A stretch of 52,310 nucleotides of DNA from the NCBI GenBank assembly GCA_002688355.1, contig NZCT01000030.1, forward strand, positions 1-52,310, written 5' to 3'. Source of the DNA: an archaeon (GTDB lineage Archaea > Nanobdellota > Nanobdellia > SCGC-AAA011-G17 > GW2011-AR20). The notes beneath the pieces are model-generated. The model had not been told where the DNA came from and ran no database searches. It saw only the letters and a program-made list of their open reading frames with translations. The position numbers and the translations under genes were made by a program. Shown in pieces: positions 2,900-25,855 of the stretch (positions are counted from its first letter, which is position 1; every line of letters starts with the position of its first letter).

Positions 2900-4534
2900 A
2901 TGACACAACCAGTACAACCAATATTTATCTTACCTGAAAACGCACAAAGAACAACAGGTAAAGACGCACAAAGAAATAATATAATGGCTGCTAAAGCAGT
3001 AGCTGAAACAGTCAGAACTACCTTAGGTCCGAAGGGAATGGATAAAATGTTAGTAGATTCTCTAGGCGACGTAGTTGTAACTAATGATGGTGTAACAATT
3101 CTAAATGAAATGCAAATAGAACATCCTGCAGCTAAAATGATAGTTGAAGTTGCAAAAACTCAAGAAAATGAAGTTGGAGACGGTACTACAACAGCTGTAG
3201 TTTTAGCAGGAGAATTATTAAAAAACGCAGAAAAATTACTAGATGATAATATACACCCTACAATAATCTCAAAAGGTTATAAATTAGCTTCAGATAAAGC
3301 TCATGAAATTTTAAATTCTATCTCAGAAGACCTTTCAAAAGATGATAAAGAAACTTTAAAGAAAATAGCAATAACAGCAATGACGGGAAAAGGTGCTGAT
3401 TCTGCAAAAGATGTGCTAGGTTCCTTAATCGTAAACGCAGTTTCTCAAGTTATTGAAAATGATGCTGTTGATACTGATGATATAAAAATTGAAAAGAAAG
3501 TAGGCGGAGGAATAGAAGATACAGAATTAATTCAAGGTATTGTATTAGATAAAGAAAAAGTTCATTCTGCAATGCCAAAGTCAATTAAAGATGCTAAAAT
3601 TGCTCTTTTAGACGTAGCTATTGAAATTAAATCTCCTGAAACAGATACAAAAGTTCAAATCTCAAATCCAGAACAATTACAAGGTTTCTTAGACCAAGAA
3701 TCTACAATATTAAAAAATATGACTGAAAAAGTTATTCAAAGTAACGCTAATGTTGTAATATGTCAAAAAGGTATTGACGATATTGCTCAACATTATTTAT
3801 CTAAAGCAGGAATTTACGCAGTTCGTAGAGTTAAAAAATCTGATATGGATAAATTAGCTCGTGCAACTAATGGAAAAGTTCTAAGTAATATTGATGATTT
3901 AACTGAAGAAGATCTAGGTTACGCAGGTGTAGTAGAAGAAATAAAAGTTGGAGATGAGTCATTTACTTATGTTAAAGATTGTAAAAATCCTAAATCTGTA
4001 ACTTTACTTGTTAGAGGTGGAACAGAACATGTTGTAGCAGAGATTGAACGTGCTATTAACGATTCAATTGGAGATATTACCTCAGCATTAATAGACTCTA
4101 AAGTCGTGGCTGGTGCAGGTTCGGTAGAAATTGAAGTTTCTAAACAATTAAAAGAATATGCAAGTACTTTATCTGGAAAAGAACAATTAGCAGTTAACGC
4201 TTTTTCAGAAGCTCTTGAAATTATACCAAGAACTTTAGCAGAAAACTCTGGCCTAGATCCTGTAGATGTATTAACAGATTTAAAATCAAGTCACAACTCA
4301 GAGAATGGAAAATGGCAAGGAATAAATGTATTTTCCGGTAAAGTTGTAAACGCTTGGGACGCAGGTGTAGTAGAACCATTAAAAATTAAAACTCAAGCAA
4401 TAAAATCAGCATCAGAGGTTTCAGAATTAATTTTAAGAATTGATGATATTATAGCAAGTTCATCTTCAGATGCAGCAGGACCAATGCCCCCTCAAGGAAT
4501 GCCACAAGGTATGCCTGGAATGGGTGACTATTAA
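2900..4534 (+). CDS. ths: thermosome (group II chaperonin) subunit
   Basis: [24 protein letters not shown]-rich tail. Confidence 0.98.
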
Positions 4535-22451: not shown

Positions 22452-22949
22452 ATGGCAGAAGAATTTAAACGTATCGTTAGAGTCTTAAACACAGATATAG
22501 ATGGAAATAAAAACACATTCATGGCCTTGAAAAAAATCAAGGGCATTGGTTTTATGTTCTCAAACGCTATATGCAATCATCTAAACTTAAATAAGAATAG
22601 TAAAGTAGGTTCTTTATCAGATGAACAAATAAAAAGTATTCATGATCTATTAGAAAATACAAAAGAACTACCAAGTTGGTTATTGAATAGAAGATCTGAT
22701 CCAGAAACTGGAGAAGATTCTCAATTAACAACTGCAAAACTAAGATTAACTTATGAATTTGATCTAAAAAGATTAAAACAAACTAAATCTTATAGAGGTC
22801 TACGTCATGCATGGGGATTACCTTTAAGAGGACAAAGAACAAGAAGCAATTTCAGAAAAGGAAAATCACTTGGCGTAGTAAAAAAAGCAACAAAGCAAGC
22901 ACAAGCAGCATCTACAGCAAAAAAACCAGGCAAAGGAGACAAAAAATAA
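22452..22949 (+). CDS. rps13: 30S ribosomal protein uS13
   Basis: IVRVLNTDIDG, SYRGLRHAWGLPLRGQRTRSNFR. Confidence 0.97.
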   Translation: MAEEFKRIVRVLNTDIDGNKNTFMALKKIKGIGFMFSNAICNHLNLNKNSKVGSLSDEQIKSIHDLLENTKELPSWLLNRRSDPETGEDSQLTTAKLRLTYEFDLKRLKQTKSYRGLRHAWGLPLRGQRTRSNFRKGKSLGVVKKATKQAQAASTAKKPGKGDKK

Positions 22950-22950
22950 A

Positions 22951-23646
22951 ATGGGTTCTCCAAGAAAATTAAGAAAAAAATATAAAACACCTAATCATCC
23001 TTGGAACTTAACTAGAATAGAAGAAGAAAAAACAATAGTTTCTGATTATGGTTTAAAAAATAAAAAAGAAGTTTGGAAAACAGATTCTAAATTAAGAAGG
23101 TCTCTAAGACAAGCAAAAAGATTAATTGCTTTAGATACAGAACAATCTAAAATAGAAGAGAAACAAGTTATATCAAGATTAATAAAATATAATTTACTAA
23201 AGGAAAATAGTTCTGTGGATGATATTTTAAATTTAAAATTACAAGATTTCTTAGAAAGAAGATTACAAACAATTGTTTTACAAAAGAAACTAGCACAATC
23301 ACCAAAACAAGCAAGACAATTTATTACACATGGACACATCTCAATTAAAGGAAAAAAGGTTACAATACCATCTTATCTAGTAAAAGCTGATGAAGAAAAT
23401 GATATAACTTACTTAAAGAAATCTTCATTATCAAAACCAGATCATGCTGAAGTTACTAAAATACATGCAAAAGAGGAAGAAGAAAAACAAAGAATACTTA
23501 AGAAGAAAGATGAGATTAAAAGTATTGAAAAGAAAAAAGCAGATGAATTAAAATCAAAAGAAACTAAAACTGAAGATAAACCAAAAGAAACTAAAACTGA
23601 AAAGGTTAAAGATACTAAGAAAGAAACTAAGAAAGATAAAAAATGA
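22951..23646 (+). CDS. rps4: 30S ribosomal protein uS4 with Lys/Glu-rich tail
   Basis: MGSPRKLRKKYKTPNHPW, YGLKNKKEVW, LERRLQT, ARQFITHGHI. Confidence 0.97.
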   Translation: MGSPRKLRKKYKTPNHPWNLTRIEEEKTIVSDYGLKNKKEVWKTDSKLRRSLRQAKRLIALDTEQSKIEEKQVISRLIKYNLLKENSSVDDILNLKLQDFLERRLQTIVLQKKLAQSPKQARQFITHGHISIKGKKVTIPSYLVKADEENDITYLKKSSLSKPDHAEVTKIHAKEEEEKQRILKKKDEIKSIEKKKADELKSKETKTEDKPKETKTEKVKDTKKETKKDKK

Positions 23647-24053
23647 GACCACAAAGAGACAATAGAAAATTAAGATGGGGAGTTTGTCATATTTATTCAA
23701 CTTACAATGATACTATTATTCACGTAACAGACATTACAGGTTCTGAAACTTTAGCTATTACTTCTGGAGGTCAAGTTGTTAAAACACACAGATTAGAAAG
23801 TTCACCAACAGCAGCAATGATGGCAGCTAAGAAAATTGAAGAAAAAATAAGAGATCATGAAATTAATGCTTTACACATTAGAATAAGAGCTAAAGGTGGT
23901 CATGAAGGTCCAAACAATCCTGGTCCTGGAGCTCAAGCAGTTGTAAGAACTCTTTCTAGAGATGGATTTAAAATTGGTTTTATAGAAGATGTAACTAAAC
24001 TTCCTGCAGGTGGTTGTAGAAAAAGTCATGCGCGACGTGGGAGGAGGGTCTGA
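23643..24053 (+). CDS. rps11: 30S ribosomal protein uS11
   Basis: WGVCHIYSTYNDTIIHVTD, PGPGAQ, RRGRRV. Confidence 0.96.
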   Translation: MRPQRDNRKLRWGVCHIYSTYNDTIIHVTDITGSETLAITSGGQVVKTHRLESSPTAAMMAAKKIEEKIRDHEINALHIRIRAKGGHEGPNNPGPGAQAVVRTLSRDGFKIGFIEDVTKLPAGGCRKSHARRGRRV

Positions 24054-25222
24054 GAGTATAATCTAGAGTTTAATTTCATTAATTCCTTTATTTTTTTACC
24101 TAAATCACGAAAATCATTAACAAAATAAAAATCAGTATTTACAGTTTCTCGCTTTATAGTTCTAATAACCAAATCTCTTTGTTCTTCGTCACATTTGATA
24201 ACAATAAATGTTTTAACATCAGGATATTTTAATTTTAATAATTGAAATCTATGATCTAAATATGCAATCCTAAAAGTAATATTAAATCTATTTCTTTTAT
24301 TAGATATTCTTGTAGCTTCAATTAATATAAATGGATTATTTTCATCAGGAAATACAAAATCTATATTCATTTCTTTTTTAATACTTTGAACATTTGTTTG
24401 CATTTTACCAGATAAATTAGAATTCTTCTTAGTATTTTTGTCAACAAAAATTCCATCCTTTAATAGATCATTCTTTATTATTAACTCTAGGTTTGTAAAG
24501 GGACTGAATCTTTCAAAACTTTTAATAGCATTGTCCAAATTAATTCCATTAGATTTTATTTTCCTCTTTAATATTTTCATAATTCTTTCAGCTGTTTCTG
24601 GTAACATTCTTTCATAATAACCTTCATATTTCCTTAATCTTTTAGTGTCATTCCACTTCAATAATTTACTAAGTTCTCTTGCATTTAATCCTAAAATCAT
24701 TCGAAATATTGTTAGAAACATTGTGTCCCTAATTATTAATTCTTTATTAAGAATTGTAAAATCCTTAGTTTCATTCTTTAATAAATTAAAATATTTTACA
24801 AAATCCTCTTTATGCATATCTGAAAAACGCTTCATTTTATATTTTGGTTTAGGTGGTTTTATGAAATATTTTCTTCTAGCACCTTTACATCTTTGCCATA
24901 ACAACACTGTTCTTTCATAATCAACAATTTTACCTTCTAGAAACAGTTTATTTATCAAATCTAAAGCTTTTTCATACATTTTAGATTGCTTAAAGCCTTG
25001 TCTTCCTGCTTCAAAATGTCTTACCCACTGTTTATTTGTAGTTCCAAGTGATTTACTAAATTCTAACTGAGATAAACCTAGAACAAACCTTATAATGAGC
25101 AAATATTGTGGATTTTCATCTAGTAGAGATTTATCTAATAAATTGAAATTATTAGTCTTTTTCTTAACATATTCATAAAATTTTTTAAATTCTTTTTTAT
25201 CTATTTCACGTAAATCTTTCAA
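24026..25222 (-). CDS. tandem XRE-HTH plus PD-(D/E)XK nuclease-like protein
   Basis: Two ~73-aa repeats with HTH (LGLSQLEFSKSLG; LGLNARELSKLL); C-terminal IDFVF...ILIEAT; TTG start with AGGTGA SD. Confidence 0.7.
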   Translation of the reverse strand: MKDLREIDKKEFKKFYEYVKKKTNNFNLLDKSLLDENPQYLLIIRFVLGLSQLEFSKSLGTTNKQWVRHFEAGRQGFKQSKMYEKALDLINKLFLEGKIVDYERTVLLWQRCKGARRKYFIKPPKPKYKMKRFSDMHKEDFVKYFNLLKNETKDFTILNKELIIRDTMFLTIFRMILGLNARELSKLLKWNDTKRLRKYEGYYERMLPETAERIMKILKRKIKSNGINLDNAIKSFERFSPFTNLELIIKNDLLKDGIFVDKNTKKNSNLSGKMQTNVQSIKKEMNIDFVFPDENNPFILIEATRISNKRNRFNITFRIAYLDHRFQLLKLKYPDVKTFIVIKCDEEQRDLVIRTIKRETVNTDFYFVNDFRDLGKKIKELMKLNSRLYSQTLLPRRA

Positions 25223-25260
25223 ATTATCACCTTTATAGAATATATTCGTATTTCTTTATA

Positions 25261-25300
25261 AGCGCTGCGCGGGCGTCTTGCACATGCAACATTTGTAAGG
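25261..25300. other. isolated GC-rich stretch upstream of the nuclease gene
   Basis: AGCGCTGCGCGGGCGTCTTGCACATGCAAC in an otherwise AT-rich spacer; contains TTGCA-CA-TGCAA palindrome. Confidence 0.5.
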
Positions 25301-25381
25301 AATATATATGTTAAAGAACAATAATTCCAAATACAAATTATTTATAAAAACACTTATATAATTTTCTAGATAAACAAAAAT

Positions 25382-25855
25382 ATGCCAAACAGAAGAGAGT
25401 TCATAACAATTAGTACAGGGGTTGCTAGTTTATTACTCTCACCAAAAGCACTTAAAGCACTTGAACAAGAAGAGAAAGTTAAAGTTAGAGGTAATGAAAA
25501 ACTAGAATACTTTGCAGCTATTGCTGGTGAACAAAAAAAAGAAATTAGTGATAGAGATGTACATTATTTAGAATTAATGTTAACCACATATCCATCATTA
25601 TTCATTGTTACTAAAAGTGAAATTGATAATTTTAAGCCAAGATTCCCCAATCAACGTTTATATAGTAGTTTAGATGAAATAACAAAAACAATAATTGGTA
25701 GAACTTATAACAATGGACTTGGTGCATTAGAGGTTGATATGGAAGGAAATATTCTCAGTGCTCAATCAATATATGGGTACATAGAAAGTAGTGATAAATG
25801 GGAGAACAATGACATACCTACATTAAATCATTCTAGAGAAGATTTTAAAAAATAA
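25382..25855 (+). CDS. hypothetical protein with twin-arginine-like signal peptide
   Basis: MPNRREFI...ALKA. Confidence 0.6.
   Translation: MPNRREFITISTGVASLLLSPKALKALEQEEKVKVRGNEKLEYFAAIAGEQKKEISDRDVHYLELMLTTYPSLFIVTKSEIDNFKPRFPNQRLYSSLDEITKTIIGRTYNNGLGALEVDMEGNILSAQSIYGYIESSDKWENNDIPTLNHSREDFKK

What the first reader, a model, noticed from the sequence alone, without database searches (positions are those of the whole stretch)
24024..25300. Tandem-HTH PD-(D/E)XK cassette with GC-rich ends that appears to have rewritten the rps11 3' end
Seen: the last rps11 codons (CAT GCG CGA CGT GGG AGG AGG GTC TGA) are GC-rich, whereas these r-protein genes mostly use AGA for Arg. They read KSHARRGRRV rather than the usual GG-RRGRR. 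A second GC-rich patch (25261-25290) lies at the far end, and both share TGCGCG..CGT. Between them is a convergent 398-aa ORF with a duplicated HTH module and a nuclease motif. Known: rpo3 normally follows rps11 in archaea, and some mobile elements supply replacement 3' ends. Inference: an undescribed selfish or homing nuclease element targeting a ribosomal protein gene.
Basis: partly seen in the sequence, partly recalled or inferred. Interest (0 to 1): 0.68.

Follow-up and report, generated by a model that had tools for sequence, protein, structure and literature searches.

The report
Mobile nuclease gene beside archaeal rps11

Summary
The rps11 tail (24027-24053) and a patch at 25261-25290 are the only GC-rich 20-mers outside the rRNA operon in 52 kb. 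Between them lies a convergent 398-aa ORF with two HTH modules and a PD-(D/E)XK-fold domain.

- The KSHARRGRRV amino-acid tail is a lineage trait. The closest ORF-less relative has it too.
- The shared TGCGCG word is chance (P=0.33).
- The second patch is not an element end. It is one copy of a dispersed, promoter-like repeat with tens of copies. The same holds upstream of homologues in two other genomes.

The ORF family does behave as a mobile cassette.
- Every homologue with readable flank lies convergent to rps11 (33/33 metagenome loci and all nine look-ups).
- Only 1 of 80 related reference genomes has it. Nearly all the others have rpo3 directly after rps11.
- ORF and S11 phylogenies disagree.
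- Near-identical genomes carry 34-38%-identical ORF alleles, with divergence rising through the rps11 3' end.
- ORF presence correlates with synonymous CGY recoding of the tail.
- Frameshifted and truncated copies exist.

Best reading: a free-standing homing-endonuclease-like gene spread by homologous recombination (confidence about 0.45). Cleavage is untested.

The parts
23643..24053 (+). rps11 (ribosomal protein S11), last gene of the rps13-rps4-rps11 run
   Evidence: Pfam PF00411 E=3.4e-35. rps13 is 22452-22949 and rps4 is 22951-23646.
24027..24053 (+). GC-rich, rare-codon tail of rps11 (HARRGRRV plus stop). It carries the CGT second-Arg codon, a GTC valine codon and a TGA stop, all of which are commoner in ORF-bearing alleles.
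   Evidence: Codon statistics P~1e-4. Single copy in the source metagenome (depth 10). The second Arg is CGY in 19/28 ORF+ alleles and CGN in 19/72 ORF-less, rpo3-adjacent alleles.
24026..25222 (-). 398-aa ORF with two HTH modules and a PD-(D/E)XK-fold domain. The family has no Pfam, NCBIfam or PADLOC assignment.
   Evidence: The AF2 full-length model has pLDDT 87.9.
24833..25222 (-). HTH module 1 (aa 1-130). Its recognition-helix region KQWVRHFEAGRQ is nearly invariant across the family.
   Evidence: Alignment A1. Weak MBF1, 434-repressor and MqsA-type HTH matches.
24503..24832 (-). HTH module 2 (aa 131-240), a duplicate of module 1
   Evidence: BLASTP of the two halves, E=1e-11.
24047..24502 (-). 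PD-(D/E)XK-fold domain (aa 241-392). Invariant residues are E246, N286, D288, P297, E302, DHRFQ323-327, T338 and N362. K330 is invariant among the 14 sequences of alignment A2 and nearly invariant among the 20 of A1.
   Evidence: Domain model pLDDT 90.4, pTM 0.86. Foldseek: Can2 8q42_B E=3.7e-4, then MUS81, BbvCI, BsoBI, Bse634I, EcoO109I and Card1.
24026..24076 (-). C-terminal extension of about 16 aa that all but one homologue (P0006) lack. It runs antisense into rps11.
   Evidence: Alignment A1 columns 501-531. pLDDT is below 50 for residues 393-398.
25226..25231 (-). Shine-Dalgarno-like GGTGAT, 3 nt before the TTG start
   Evidence: Sequence.
25254..25261 (-). TATA-like TTATAAAG, 31 nt before the start codon. 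It is also the ORF-proximal end of the repeat.
   Evidence: Several other copies of the repeat have an ATG about 22-25 nt after this end.
25251..25325 (.). One copy of a dispersed repeat of about 55-75 nt (core 25256-25308). It includes the second GC-rich patch at 25261-25290.
   Evidence: Summed contig depth rises from 8.7 to about 513 in run X1. 27 contigs match, many at contig ends, and their flanks are unrelated. There is no second copy in the window and no Rfam hit.

Best explanation
The ORF is a free-standing, homing-endonuclease-like selfish gene. It encodes an array of Xre-type HTH DNA-binding modules (two here, apparently one to four across the family) fused to a PD-(D/E)XK nuclease. 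It is lodged tail-to-tail just after rps11, where rpo3 normally follows.

It has no recombinase and I saw no element ends. It moves between genomes by homologous recombination through the conserved flanks. Those flanks are the rps11 3' part on one side, and the ORF's own conserved first codons, its promoter region or rpo3 on the other. The move drags the rps11 tail along as a co-conversion tract.

Shown:
- strict linkage to rps11
- patchy distribution
- horizontal exchange with a divergence gradient in rps11
- ORF-linked synonymous recoding of the tail
- purifying selection in one lineage and decay in others.

Inferred:
- the protein cuts ORF-less, or differently recoded, rps11|rpo3 junctions and so promotes its own copying
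- the recoded tail protects carriers.

The second GC-rich patch is not part of the mobility machinery. It is the ORF's promoter region, built from a multi-copy promoter-like repeat.
For: Location:
- All nine family members looked up lie convergent to rps11 with spacers of about 6-34 nt, including a 664-aa and a 551-aa long form.
- 33 of 33 metagenome loci with at least 150 nt of room show the same.

Patchiness:
- 1 of 80 Woesearchaeota-type reference loci has the ORF. 72 distinct ORF-less loci have rpo3 within 150 nt.
- A sister species from the same sample, with S11 88% identical, has rps11 then 38 nt then rpo3.
- At least 8 state changes are needed on the S11 tree.

Transfer:
- L007 and L010 have S11 99% identical but ORFs 38% identical. 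L018 groups with the window by S11 (76%) but with L007 by ORF (46% against 35%).
- In L007 vs L010, rps11 nt 1-273 differ at 1 site and the last 28 nt differ at 9 synonymous sites. The ORF body is about 50% identical, and the ORF's first 45 nt plus 285 nt upstream are 97-100% identical.
- In L098 vs L112 the flanks are 96.2% and 94.5% identical and the ORF body cannot be aligned. rps11 identity falls from 60/60 to 46/60 per 60-nt block towards the stop.

Recoding:
- The second Arg of RRGRRV is CGY in 19/28 ORF+ alleles and CGN in 19/72 rpo3-adjacent alleles (Fisher p=2e-4).
- Within the window's clade the counts are 7/8 against 0/10. By my reading together, 5 of 6 sister contrasts go the same way.

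Protein:
- PD-(D/E)XK fold with invariant E246, D288 and E302.
- dN/dS is 0.21 for L001 vs L009.

Decay: frameshifted or truncated copies in L108, L125 and L127.

No hits in plasmids, phages or viral contigs.

The known paradigm includes co-conversion and replacement of one endonuclease gene by another at one locus (PMC2988022).
Against: - No cleavage, target site or within-species ORF+/ORF- polymorphism was observed.
- The canonical lysine is missing. The motif reads E302-x-T304 and the following K305 is not conserved.
- Structural matches are weak (best E=3.7e-4, TM 0.52).
- Some ORF-bearing alleles are not recoded (L002, L009). Some ORF-less alleles are CGN-rich (L012, L016, L031, L137).
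- The same junction holds unrelated genes in some relatives: DUF460 in L012, an unscanned 243-aa ORF in L015, and DUF2683 in L016.
- The ORF uses a promoter module shared with tens of other sites. That suggests integration into host regulation.
- The ORF-less comparison set is all Woesearchaeota-type, and the codon tests are not fully independent of phylogeny.
- All data are metagenome assemblies.
Confidence: 0.45

Rival explanations
1. The ORF is a host transcription regulator. Its Xre-type HTH modules bind the GC-rich box next to the TATA element of its own promoter and of the tens of other copies of the same promoter-like repeat (a regulon). The nuclease-like domain serves for dimerisation or sensing. 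It sits at rps11|rpo3 for historical reasons, and its alleles are swapped by ordinary recombination.
For: - The HTH modules resemble Xre, MqsA, HipB and MBF1 types.
- The canonical catalytic Lys is absent.
- In three independent genomes the sequence just upstream of the ORF is a multi-copy element ending in a TATA-like box. Several other copies are followed by an ATG 22-25 nt later.
- A GCGC-containing box (consensus about CGCGCAG-N3-TTATAAA) is conserved upstream of ORFs that are only about 32% identical.
- The HTH1 recognition helix is nearly invariant.
Against: - A global regulator should not be absent from sister species.
- It should not be replaced by a 34%-identical allele in a 95-96%-identical genome that keeps the same upstream box.
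- It should not be found frameshifted or truncated.
- The most conserved block of the protein is in the nuclease domain, with an invariant acidic triad.
Confidence: 0.2
2. The ORF is a single-gene defence or restriction-like nuclease carried as cargo in a recombination hotspot at the end of the rps13-rps4-rps11 operon. It is kept diverse by frequency-dependent selection.
For: - Highly divergent alleles occur in near-identical backgrounds.
- Other unrelated genes occupy the same junction in relatives.
- In L010 and L011 the upstream neighbour is a McrB-N/NucS-C PD-(D/E)XK protein.
- The nearest structural neighbours are CRISPR ancillary nucleases Can2 and Card1 and restriction enzymes.
Against: - Defence genes move among many contexts. 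This family is found only next to rps11.
- No PADLOC model matches beyond noise.
- No methyltransferase or partner gene accompanies it where the insert is just the ORF (L002, L003, L018).
Confidence: 0.12
3. The ORF is a domesticated nuclease that services the dispersed repeat, by analogy with RAYT transposases and REP/REPIN elements. A single-copy gene flanked by one repeat copy would bind, cut or spread the tens of short palindromic repeats.
For: - The repeat copy abuts the ORF in three genomes.
- The repeat has imperfect inverted arms around a GC core.
- Most copies are at least 95% alike, which suggests recent copying.
Against: - A repeat copy lies on one side only.
- The spacing to an ATG after several other copies fits a promoter better than a transposon.
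- The ORF allele can change while the repeat stays.
- The fold z-score is unremarkable at -1.3.
Confidence: 0.08

Closest known systems
Free-standing homing endonuclease genes of T-even phages (seg and mob genes; 'intronless homing')
   Same: A stand-alone nuclease gene sits in the gap between genes conserved among relatives. Its distribution is patchy. Flanking sequence is co-converted. Different endonuclease genes replace one another at one locus (SegH and Hef replacing mobC and mobE). See PMC2988022.
   Different: Those enzymes are GIY-YIG or HNH and live in phage genomes, and their cleavage has been demonstrated. Here the fold is PD-(D/E)XK with HTH arrays, the host is an archaeal chromosome (an r-protein/RNA polymerase operon), and cleavage is untested.
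PD-(D/E)XK homing endonucleases such as I-Ssp6803I (one of six recognised homing-endonuclease families, PMC6083498)
   Same: A restriction-endonuclease-like catalytic fold used by a selfish element that targets a conserved gene.
   Different: From my own knowledge, I-Ssp6803I is encoded in a group I intron, is small and has no HTH array. No sequence similarity was detected here.
Type II restriction endonucleases and R-M controller (C) proteins
   Same: The PD-(D/E)XK fold has neighbours BsoBI, Bse634I, EcoO109I, BbvCI and Cfr10I. An Xre-type HTH lies next to a GC-rich dyad-like box in its own promoter.
   Different: No methyltransferase partner. HTH modules and nuclease are fused. The locus is fixed next to rps11.
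Can2/Card1 CRISPR ancillary nuclease domain
   Same: It is the best structural match for the C-terminal domain (8q42_B E=3.7e-4, TM 0.52).
   Different: No CARF domain and no CRISPR context. Sequence identity is 14%.
RAYT-REP/REPIN systems
   Same: A single-copy nuclease-type gene abuts a copy of a short, GC-rich, partly palindromic repeat that is present in tens of copies.
   Different: From my own knowledge, RAYTs are HUH/Y1 enzymes flanked by repeats on both sides and inherited vertically. Here a repeat lies on one side only, looks like a promoter, and the gene is exchanged horizontally.

Membership tests
Free-standing homing endonuclease gene | Stand-alone nuclease gene in an intergenic gap between genes that are adjacent in relatives lacking it | tested here: met
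   rps11 and rpo3 are adjacent (-3 to +150 nt) in 72 distinct ORF-less loci. They are separated by 1340-5735 nt in ORF-bearing loci.
Free-standing homing endonuclease gene | Sporadic distribution and phylogeny incongruent with the host | tested here: met
   1 of 80 reference loci carries it. ORF and S11 identity matrices disagree. At least 8 state changes are needed on the S11 tree. The tree rests on a short gene and is weak.
Free-standing homing endonuclease gene | Co-conversion of flanking host sequence with the gene | tested here: met
   Divergence gradients in the rps11 3' end appear in two pairs of near-identical genomes carrying different ORF alleles. The tail's CGY signature follows the ORF. 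This shows recombination tracts. It does not show that a break started them.
Free-standing homing endonuclease gene | Site-specific double-strand cleavage of the allele that lacks the gene, with a resistant carrier allele | not testable with these tools
   Needs purified protein and synthetic ORF-less and recoded junction substrates.
PD-(D/E)XK nuclease superfamily | alpha-beta-beta-beta-alpha-beta core fold | tested here: met
   The AF2 domain model (pLDDT 90.4) shows H-E-E-E-H-E-H-E-H. The Foldseek neighbours are mainly PD-(D/E)XK enzymes, though all matches are weak.
PD-(D/E)XK nuclease superfamily | Catalytic D ... (D/E)-x-K motif on strands 2 and 3 | tested here: inconclusive
   D288 and E302 are invariant, as is E246 on helix 1. 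The x+2 position is T304, not K, and K305 varies (R, N, S, L). K330, R325 and H324 on the next helix are conserved and could substitute. No coordinates were available to check the geometry.
   The shared word between the two patches is 6 nt (P=0.33). The far patch is a copy of an independent multi-copy repeat. No transposase or integrase family was detected. Every copy is at one locus.
Restriction-modification system | A cognate methyltransferase gene adjacent | tested here: not met
   In L002, L003 and L018 the inserted segment holds only this ORF between rps11 and rpo3.
Xre-family HTH transcription regulator | HTH_3-type domain scoring above family thresholds | tested here: inconclusive
   The window protein has no Pfam hit. 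Some homologues have faint PF01381 or PF13560 hits. NCBIfam MqsA-type HTH scores 21.6-31.9 bits, below its 61.8-bit cut-off. The profile against PDB gives MBF1 at E=0.017.

The most novel reading that the evidence does not exclude
This would be a new family of chromosomal, free-standing homing endonucleases in DPANN archaea. Each member would have a PD-(D/E)XK nuclease guided by a tandem array of one to four HTH modules. It would drive itself through populations, and across phyla, at the rps11|rpo3 junction of the ribosomal protein/RNA polymerase operon. It would rewrite the synonymous sites of the rps11 tail as it goes, and competing alleles would displace one another at the same site.
Probability: 0.4. 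Interest if true: 0.8.

Novelty: new variant of a known kind. Interest (0 to 1): 0.62.

Why it matters
If the nuclease drives its own spread, this would be an unusual free-standing homing system in cellular chromosomes rather than in phages, introns or inteins. It would sit inside one of the most conserved operons of archaea.

It would show that gene flow by homologous recombination reaches across DPANN lineages.

It would explain anomalous codon usage at the end of an essential gene as a footprint of a selfish element.

A nuclease whose DNA-binding part appears to be built from one to four repeated HTH modules is also a natural case of modular target recognition worth biochemical study.

Separately, the multi-copy promoter-like repeat found upstream of the gene in three genomes is an undescribed genome feature of these organisms.

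Tried and rejected
- **Family searches.** Pfam, NCBIfam and PADLOC scans of the ORF and three homologues gave no family above threshold. Sequence-profile searches of PDB gave only weak HTH hits for the full protein and none for the nuclease domain.
- **RNA.** Rfam at gathering threshold (whole window) and at E up to 10 (23950-25450), plus tRNA scanning, found no RNA gene in either patch.
- **Repeat structure.** RNA folding of the repeat gave z-scores of -0.06 to -1.3, not significant.
- **Matching ends.** Rejected. The longest shared word is 6 nt (P=0.33), and the far patch is multi-copy while the tail is single-copy.
- **Amino-acid rewriting of the S11 tail by the element.** Rejected. ORF-less L012 has the same tail, and non-GG tails are a clade trait.
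- **Relic of a displaced rps11 end upstream of rpo3 in ORF-bearing loci.** None was seen.
- **Antisense coding constraint from the ORF's overlap as the cause of the GC-rich tail.** Rejected. All but one homologue lack the C-terminal extension, and its sequence is not conserved.
- **Relaxed Shine-Dalgarno constraint as the sole cause of CGN enrichment.** Rejected. Relaxation should give the preferred AGA codon, not rare CGN. It may still explain the retained AGG AGG.
- **Virus or plasmid origin.** No hits.
- **ORF-less variant of the window's own strain.** All contigs with the identical S11 and readable downstream flank carry the ORF.
Full report
**1. What is in the window**

The window comes from a low-GC (28.7%) archaeon recovered from marine metagenome assemblies. 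It carries rps13 (22452-22949), rps4 (22951-23646) and rps11 (23643-24053) on the + strand.

A 398-aa ORF (24026-25222) runs convergently on the - strand. It starts at TTG after a GGTGAT Shine-Dalgarno-like motif. It ends inside rps11, with a 28-nt overlap.

No rpo3 homologue was found anywhere in the 52-kb window (tblastn).

**2. Checking the observation**

The last rps11 codons are CAT GCG CGA CGT GGG AGG AGG GTC TGA. Each of the seven codons from GCG to GTC is a minority synonymous choice here.

| Codon family | Usage in eight neighbouring genes |
|---|---|
| Arg | AGA 66, AGG 1, CGN 6 |
| Ala | GCG 0 of 65 |
| Gly | GGG 4 of 69 |
| Val | GTC 2 of 61 |

A Monte-Carlo re-encoding with local codon usage reaches the observed G+C in about 1 of 10,000 trials.

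Outside the rRNA operon, the only two 20-nt windows with at least 15 G+C are 24029-24050 and 25261-25283.

The ORF's internal duplication is real: aa 1-72 match aa 135-207 at E=1e-11.

AlphaFold models were built with an alignment of 20 family members. The full-length model has pLDDT 87.9 and the C-terminal domain model has pLDDT 90.4 and pTM 0.86. They show two helical HTH modules followed by an alpha-beta-beta-beta-alpha-beta-alpha-beta-alpha domain.

The Foldseek neighbours of that domain are mainly PD-(D/E)XK enzymes. The best is Can2 8q42_B (E=3.7e-4), followed by MUS81, BbvCI, BsoBI, Bse634I, EcoO109I and Card1. All matches are weak.

The shared word TGCGCG between the two patches is not beyond chance (P=0.33).

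**3. The family and where it lives**

The word-indexed protein search found 20 relatives at 30-58% identity, and none carries an informative functional name. A full HMM search found 248 clusters at 50% identity. Protein lengths cluster near 260, 380-400, 510-550 and 660-675 aa, which fits one to four HTH modules.

Pfam, NCBIfam and PADLOC assign no family.

The genomic context is remarkably uniform.
- All nine members looked up lie convergent to rps11, with about 6-34 nt between the stop codons. These include a 664-aa and a 551-aa long form.
- A metagenome scan returned 39 loci. Of these, 33 have at least 150 nt of room downstream, and all 33 have rps11 there on the opposite strand.
- There are no matches in viral contigs, phage records or plasmids.

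**4. Relatives without the ORF**

I scanned one genome per species with the window's S11 protein. This gave 80 loci, mostly labelled Woesearchaeota or Nanoarchaeota. Only one of them (L018) has the ORF.

In 72 distinct ORF-less sequences, rpo3 follows rps11 within -3 to +150 nt. In ORF-bearing loci, rpo3 is displaced by 1340-5735 nt or is absent from the fetched flank.

A sister species of the L007/L010 organism, from the same sample and with S11 88% identical, has rps11, then 38 nt, then rpo3.

On an S11 neighbour-joining tree, the ORF-bearing Woesearchaeota lineages are interspersed with ORF-less ones. These lineages are the window, L097, L018, L101, L001/L009, L102 and L108. Parsimony needs at least 8 state changes. 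The gene is short, so the tree is weak.

**5. Evidence that the ORF is exchanged horizontally together with the end of rps11**

ORF and S11 similarities disagree.

| Comparison | S11 identity | ORF identity |
|---|---|---|
| L007 vs L010 | 99% | 38% |
| L018 vs window | 76% | 35% |
| L018 vs L007 | 55% | 46% |

At the nucleotide level, L007 and L010 show a clear pattern.
- rps11 positions 1-273 differ at one site.
- The next 72 nt differ at 7 sites.
- The last 28 nt differ at 9 sites, with the tail residues shown (KGGRKGRRV) unchanged.
- The ORF body is about 50% identical.
- The ORF's first 45 nt or so, plus 285 nt upstream, are 97-100% identical.

A second pair, L098 and L112, comes from contigs of 36 and 106 kb.
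- The upstream flank is 96.2% identical and the rpo3 region is 94.5% identical, but the ORF body cannot be aligned.
- rps11 identity per 60-nt block falls towards the stop codon: 60, 60, 59, 58, 57, 54, 46.

L098 and L099 are different species at about 76% identity. They align right through the ORF, as expected for vertical descent.

So divergent ORF alleles replace each other by recombination. The crossovers fall in the 3' part of rps11 and at the ORF's conserved 5' end or promoter.

Selection signals are mixed, as expected for a dispensable gene.
- The ORF is under purifying selection in one lineage (dN/dS 0.21 for L001 vs L009).
- It is frameshifted or truncated in others (L108, L125, L127).

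**6. Is the rps11 end 'rewritten'?**

At the amino-acid level it is not. ORF-less L012 is the closest relative (S11 83% identical). It has the identical CRKSHARRGRRV tail, also with GC-rich codons (CAC GCG CGC AGA GGT CGT CGA GTT).

Tails with HF, HL, DA, SQ and similar pairs in place of GG are a trait of one Woesearchaeota subclade. Most members of that subclade have rpo3 adjacent.

Part of the GC-richness (GGGAGGAGGGTC) is a GGAGG motif that 25 of 78 ORF-less tails also carry. In those loci rpo3 starts within a few nucleotides, so I read the motif as its ribosome-binding site. That reading is an inference.

At synonymous sites there is a real association with the ORF.
- In the last eight codons, CGN makes up 52% of Arg codons in ORF-bearing alleles, against 26% in the body of the same genes. 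In ORF-less alleles the figures are 26% and 30%.
- The second Arg of RRGRRV is CGY in 19/28 ORF+ alleles. In rpo3-adjacent alleles it is CGN in 19/72, of which CGT is only 3/72 (Fisher p=2e-4).
- Valine shifts from GTA to GTC or GTG.
- Within the window's own subclade the second-Arg counts are 7/8 against 0/10.
- By my reading together, 5 of 6 sister contrasts go the same way.

There are exceptions. L002 and L009 are not recoded. ORF-less L012, L016, L031 and L137 are CGN-rich.

The signature is what co-conversion from ORF-bearing donors would leave. Whether it also protects carriers from cleavage is inference. Relaxing the ribosome-binding constraint alone cannot explain it, because relaxation should favour AGA.

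**7. The second GC-rich patch**

I laid the contigs of the source metagenome run on 25180-25420. Summed depth rises from about 8.7 (single copy) to about 513 at 25279-25287.

Twenty-seven contigs match 25251-25325, mostly at 95% identity or better. Many matches lie at contig ends, and the flanks on both sides are unrelated. The patch is therefore one copy of a dispersed repeat of about 55-75 nt.

The rps11 tail, by contrast, is single copy. There is no second copy of the repeat in the window or in any fetched locus.

The same holds upstream of homologues in two independent genomes.

| Locus | Source | Repeat span | Depth over baseline |
|---|---|---|---|
| window | marine | 25251-25325 | about 58-fold |
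| L114 | groundwater | 3898-3945 | about 70-fold and 40-fold in two runs |
| L112 | sediment | 3909-3946 | about 10-fold |

In ORF sense, the window and L114 repeats end with ...CGCGCAG(C/G)GCTTATAAA. Several other copies have an ATG about 22-25 nt after that end. This fits a BRE/TATA promoter module that drives leaderless or short-leader transcripts. The window ORF's TTG lies 31 nt after it.

A GCGC-containing box immediately upstream of a TATA-like element also occurs before the ORF in L111, L102, L108, L101, L001 and L009. A second type, CGGRRGT-N3-ACYYCCG, occurs in L002, L098, L099, L105, L107, L112 and L115.

The patch is thus the ORF's promoter region, not an element terminus. The function of the repeat family is unresolved. 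It has no Rfam match and no significant fold.

**8. Mechanism**

The best-supported account is a selfish nuclease-gene cassette of the free-standing homing-endonuclease kind.

The steps that are shown:
- fixed location at a conserved junction
- sporadic distribution
- horizontal replacement with co-transfer of the adjacent rps11 end
- ORF-linked synonymous signature
- both maintenance and decay of the gene.

The steps that are inferred:
- the protein makes a site-specific break in alleles that lack it or carry a different tail
- repair from a carrier copies the gene
- the conserved HTH1 recognition helix reads the conserved rps11 tail.

The T-even phage seg and mob genes supply the precedent. 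That precedent includes co-conversion and displacement of one endonuclease gene by another at the same locus (PMC2988022). PD-(D/E)XK is one of the recognised homing-endonuclease folds (PMC6083498).

The main doubts are these:
- the canonical lysine is missing (E302-x-T304)
- structural matches are weak
- the recoding has exceptions
- unrelated genes sit at the same junction in some relatives
- the ORF uses a promoter module shared with tens of other sites.

The rivals are a regulator of that repeat 'regulon', a defence nuclease carried in a hotspot, and a RAYT-like partner of the repeat.

**9. Novelty and caveats**

I found no description of this family or arrangement in the searchable literature.

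I rate it a new variant of a known kind. The concept of a free-standing homing endonuclease is known. The protein architecture, the archaeal chromosomal setting, the target operon and the competing alleles at one site are new.

Caveats:
- All loci are metagenome assemblies. The key alleles recur in independent assemblies, but read-level linkage was not checked.
- The ORF-less comparison set covers only the window's relatives.
- No biochemical activity has been tested.

Noticed in passing
window 25251-25325 (core 25256-25308); also L114 3898-3945 and L112 3909-3946: A short GC-rich repeat ending in a TATA-like TTATAAA is present in tens of copies in each source metagenome, at the same depth as the host genome. 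Several other copies are followed by an ATG about 22-25 nt downstream. It looks like a dispersed promoter module or a MITE carrying a promoter. Its function and its link to the ORF are unknown.
   Followed up: partly
L007 649-786, L010 1596-1748, and upstream of the L117 ORF: A conserved 45-50-aa ORF (MNEI(D/N)VFEFVSDEELWTEIYGK...) overlaps the start of the nuclease gene by 4 nt in one lineage. It has no Pfam match and is absent from the window.
   Followed up: partly
L012 4478-5017 (-): In the window's closest ORF-less relative, the position convergent to rps11 is taken by a DUF460 protein (E=1.1e-28), followed by what reads like a tRNA gene (not scanned). This is a different gene in the same slot.
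   Followed up: partly
L010 139-1065 (-), L011 149-1075 (-): A 308-aa protein with MrcB-N, NucS-C and YhcG PD-(D/E)XK domains lies just upstream of the ORF operon in the L007/L010 lineage. This architecture resembles a type IV restriction enzyme.
   Followed up: no
L006 8232-8963 and 10795-11601: rps13 is called as 243 aa, much longer than usual. Two small ORFs separate it from rps4, and a LAGLIDADG_3 gene lies 2 kb away. This may be another selfish-element footprint in the same operon.
   Followed up: no
L107, rps11 3' end (rps11-sense coordinates about 1030-1060): One extra C in ...GGCCGTCGGCGGCAGACGTGTGTGA puts the RRV-stop tail out of frame. It is either an assembly error in a hypervariable spot or a real frameshift.
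   Followed up: partly
L002 1199-2167 (-): A Cas12f1-like TNB (TnpB-type) gene lies about 4 kb from the ORF in the 431-kb contig.
   Followed up: no
window 24026-25222, as recorded in the protein database (P0001): The public gene call for this ORF is only 264 aa, starting at internal Met135. It misses the first HTH module because the true start is TTG.
   Followed up: yes
window, whole 52 kb: No rpo3 gene is present in the window, although rps13-rps4-rps11 are. In this lineage, and in L012 and L001, the ancestral rps11-rpo3 linkage is broken. A 157-aa protein with no family match (25382-25855) and an MTAP-like phosphorylase follow instead.
   Followed up: partly
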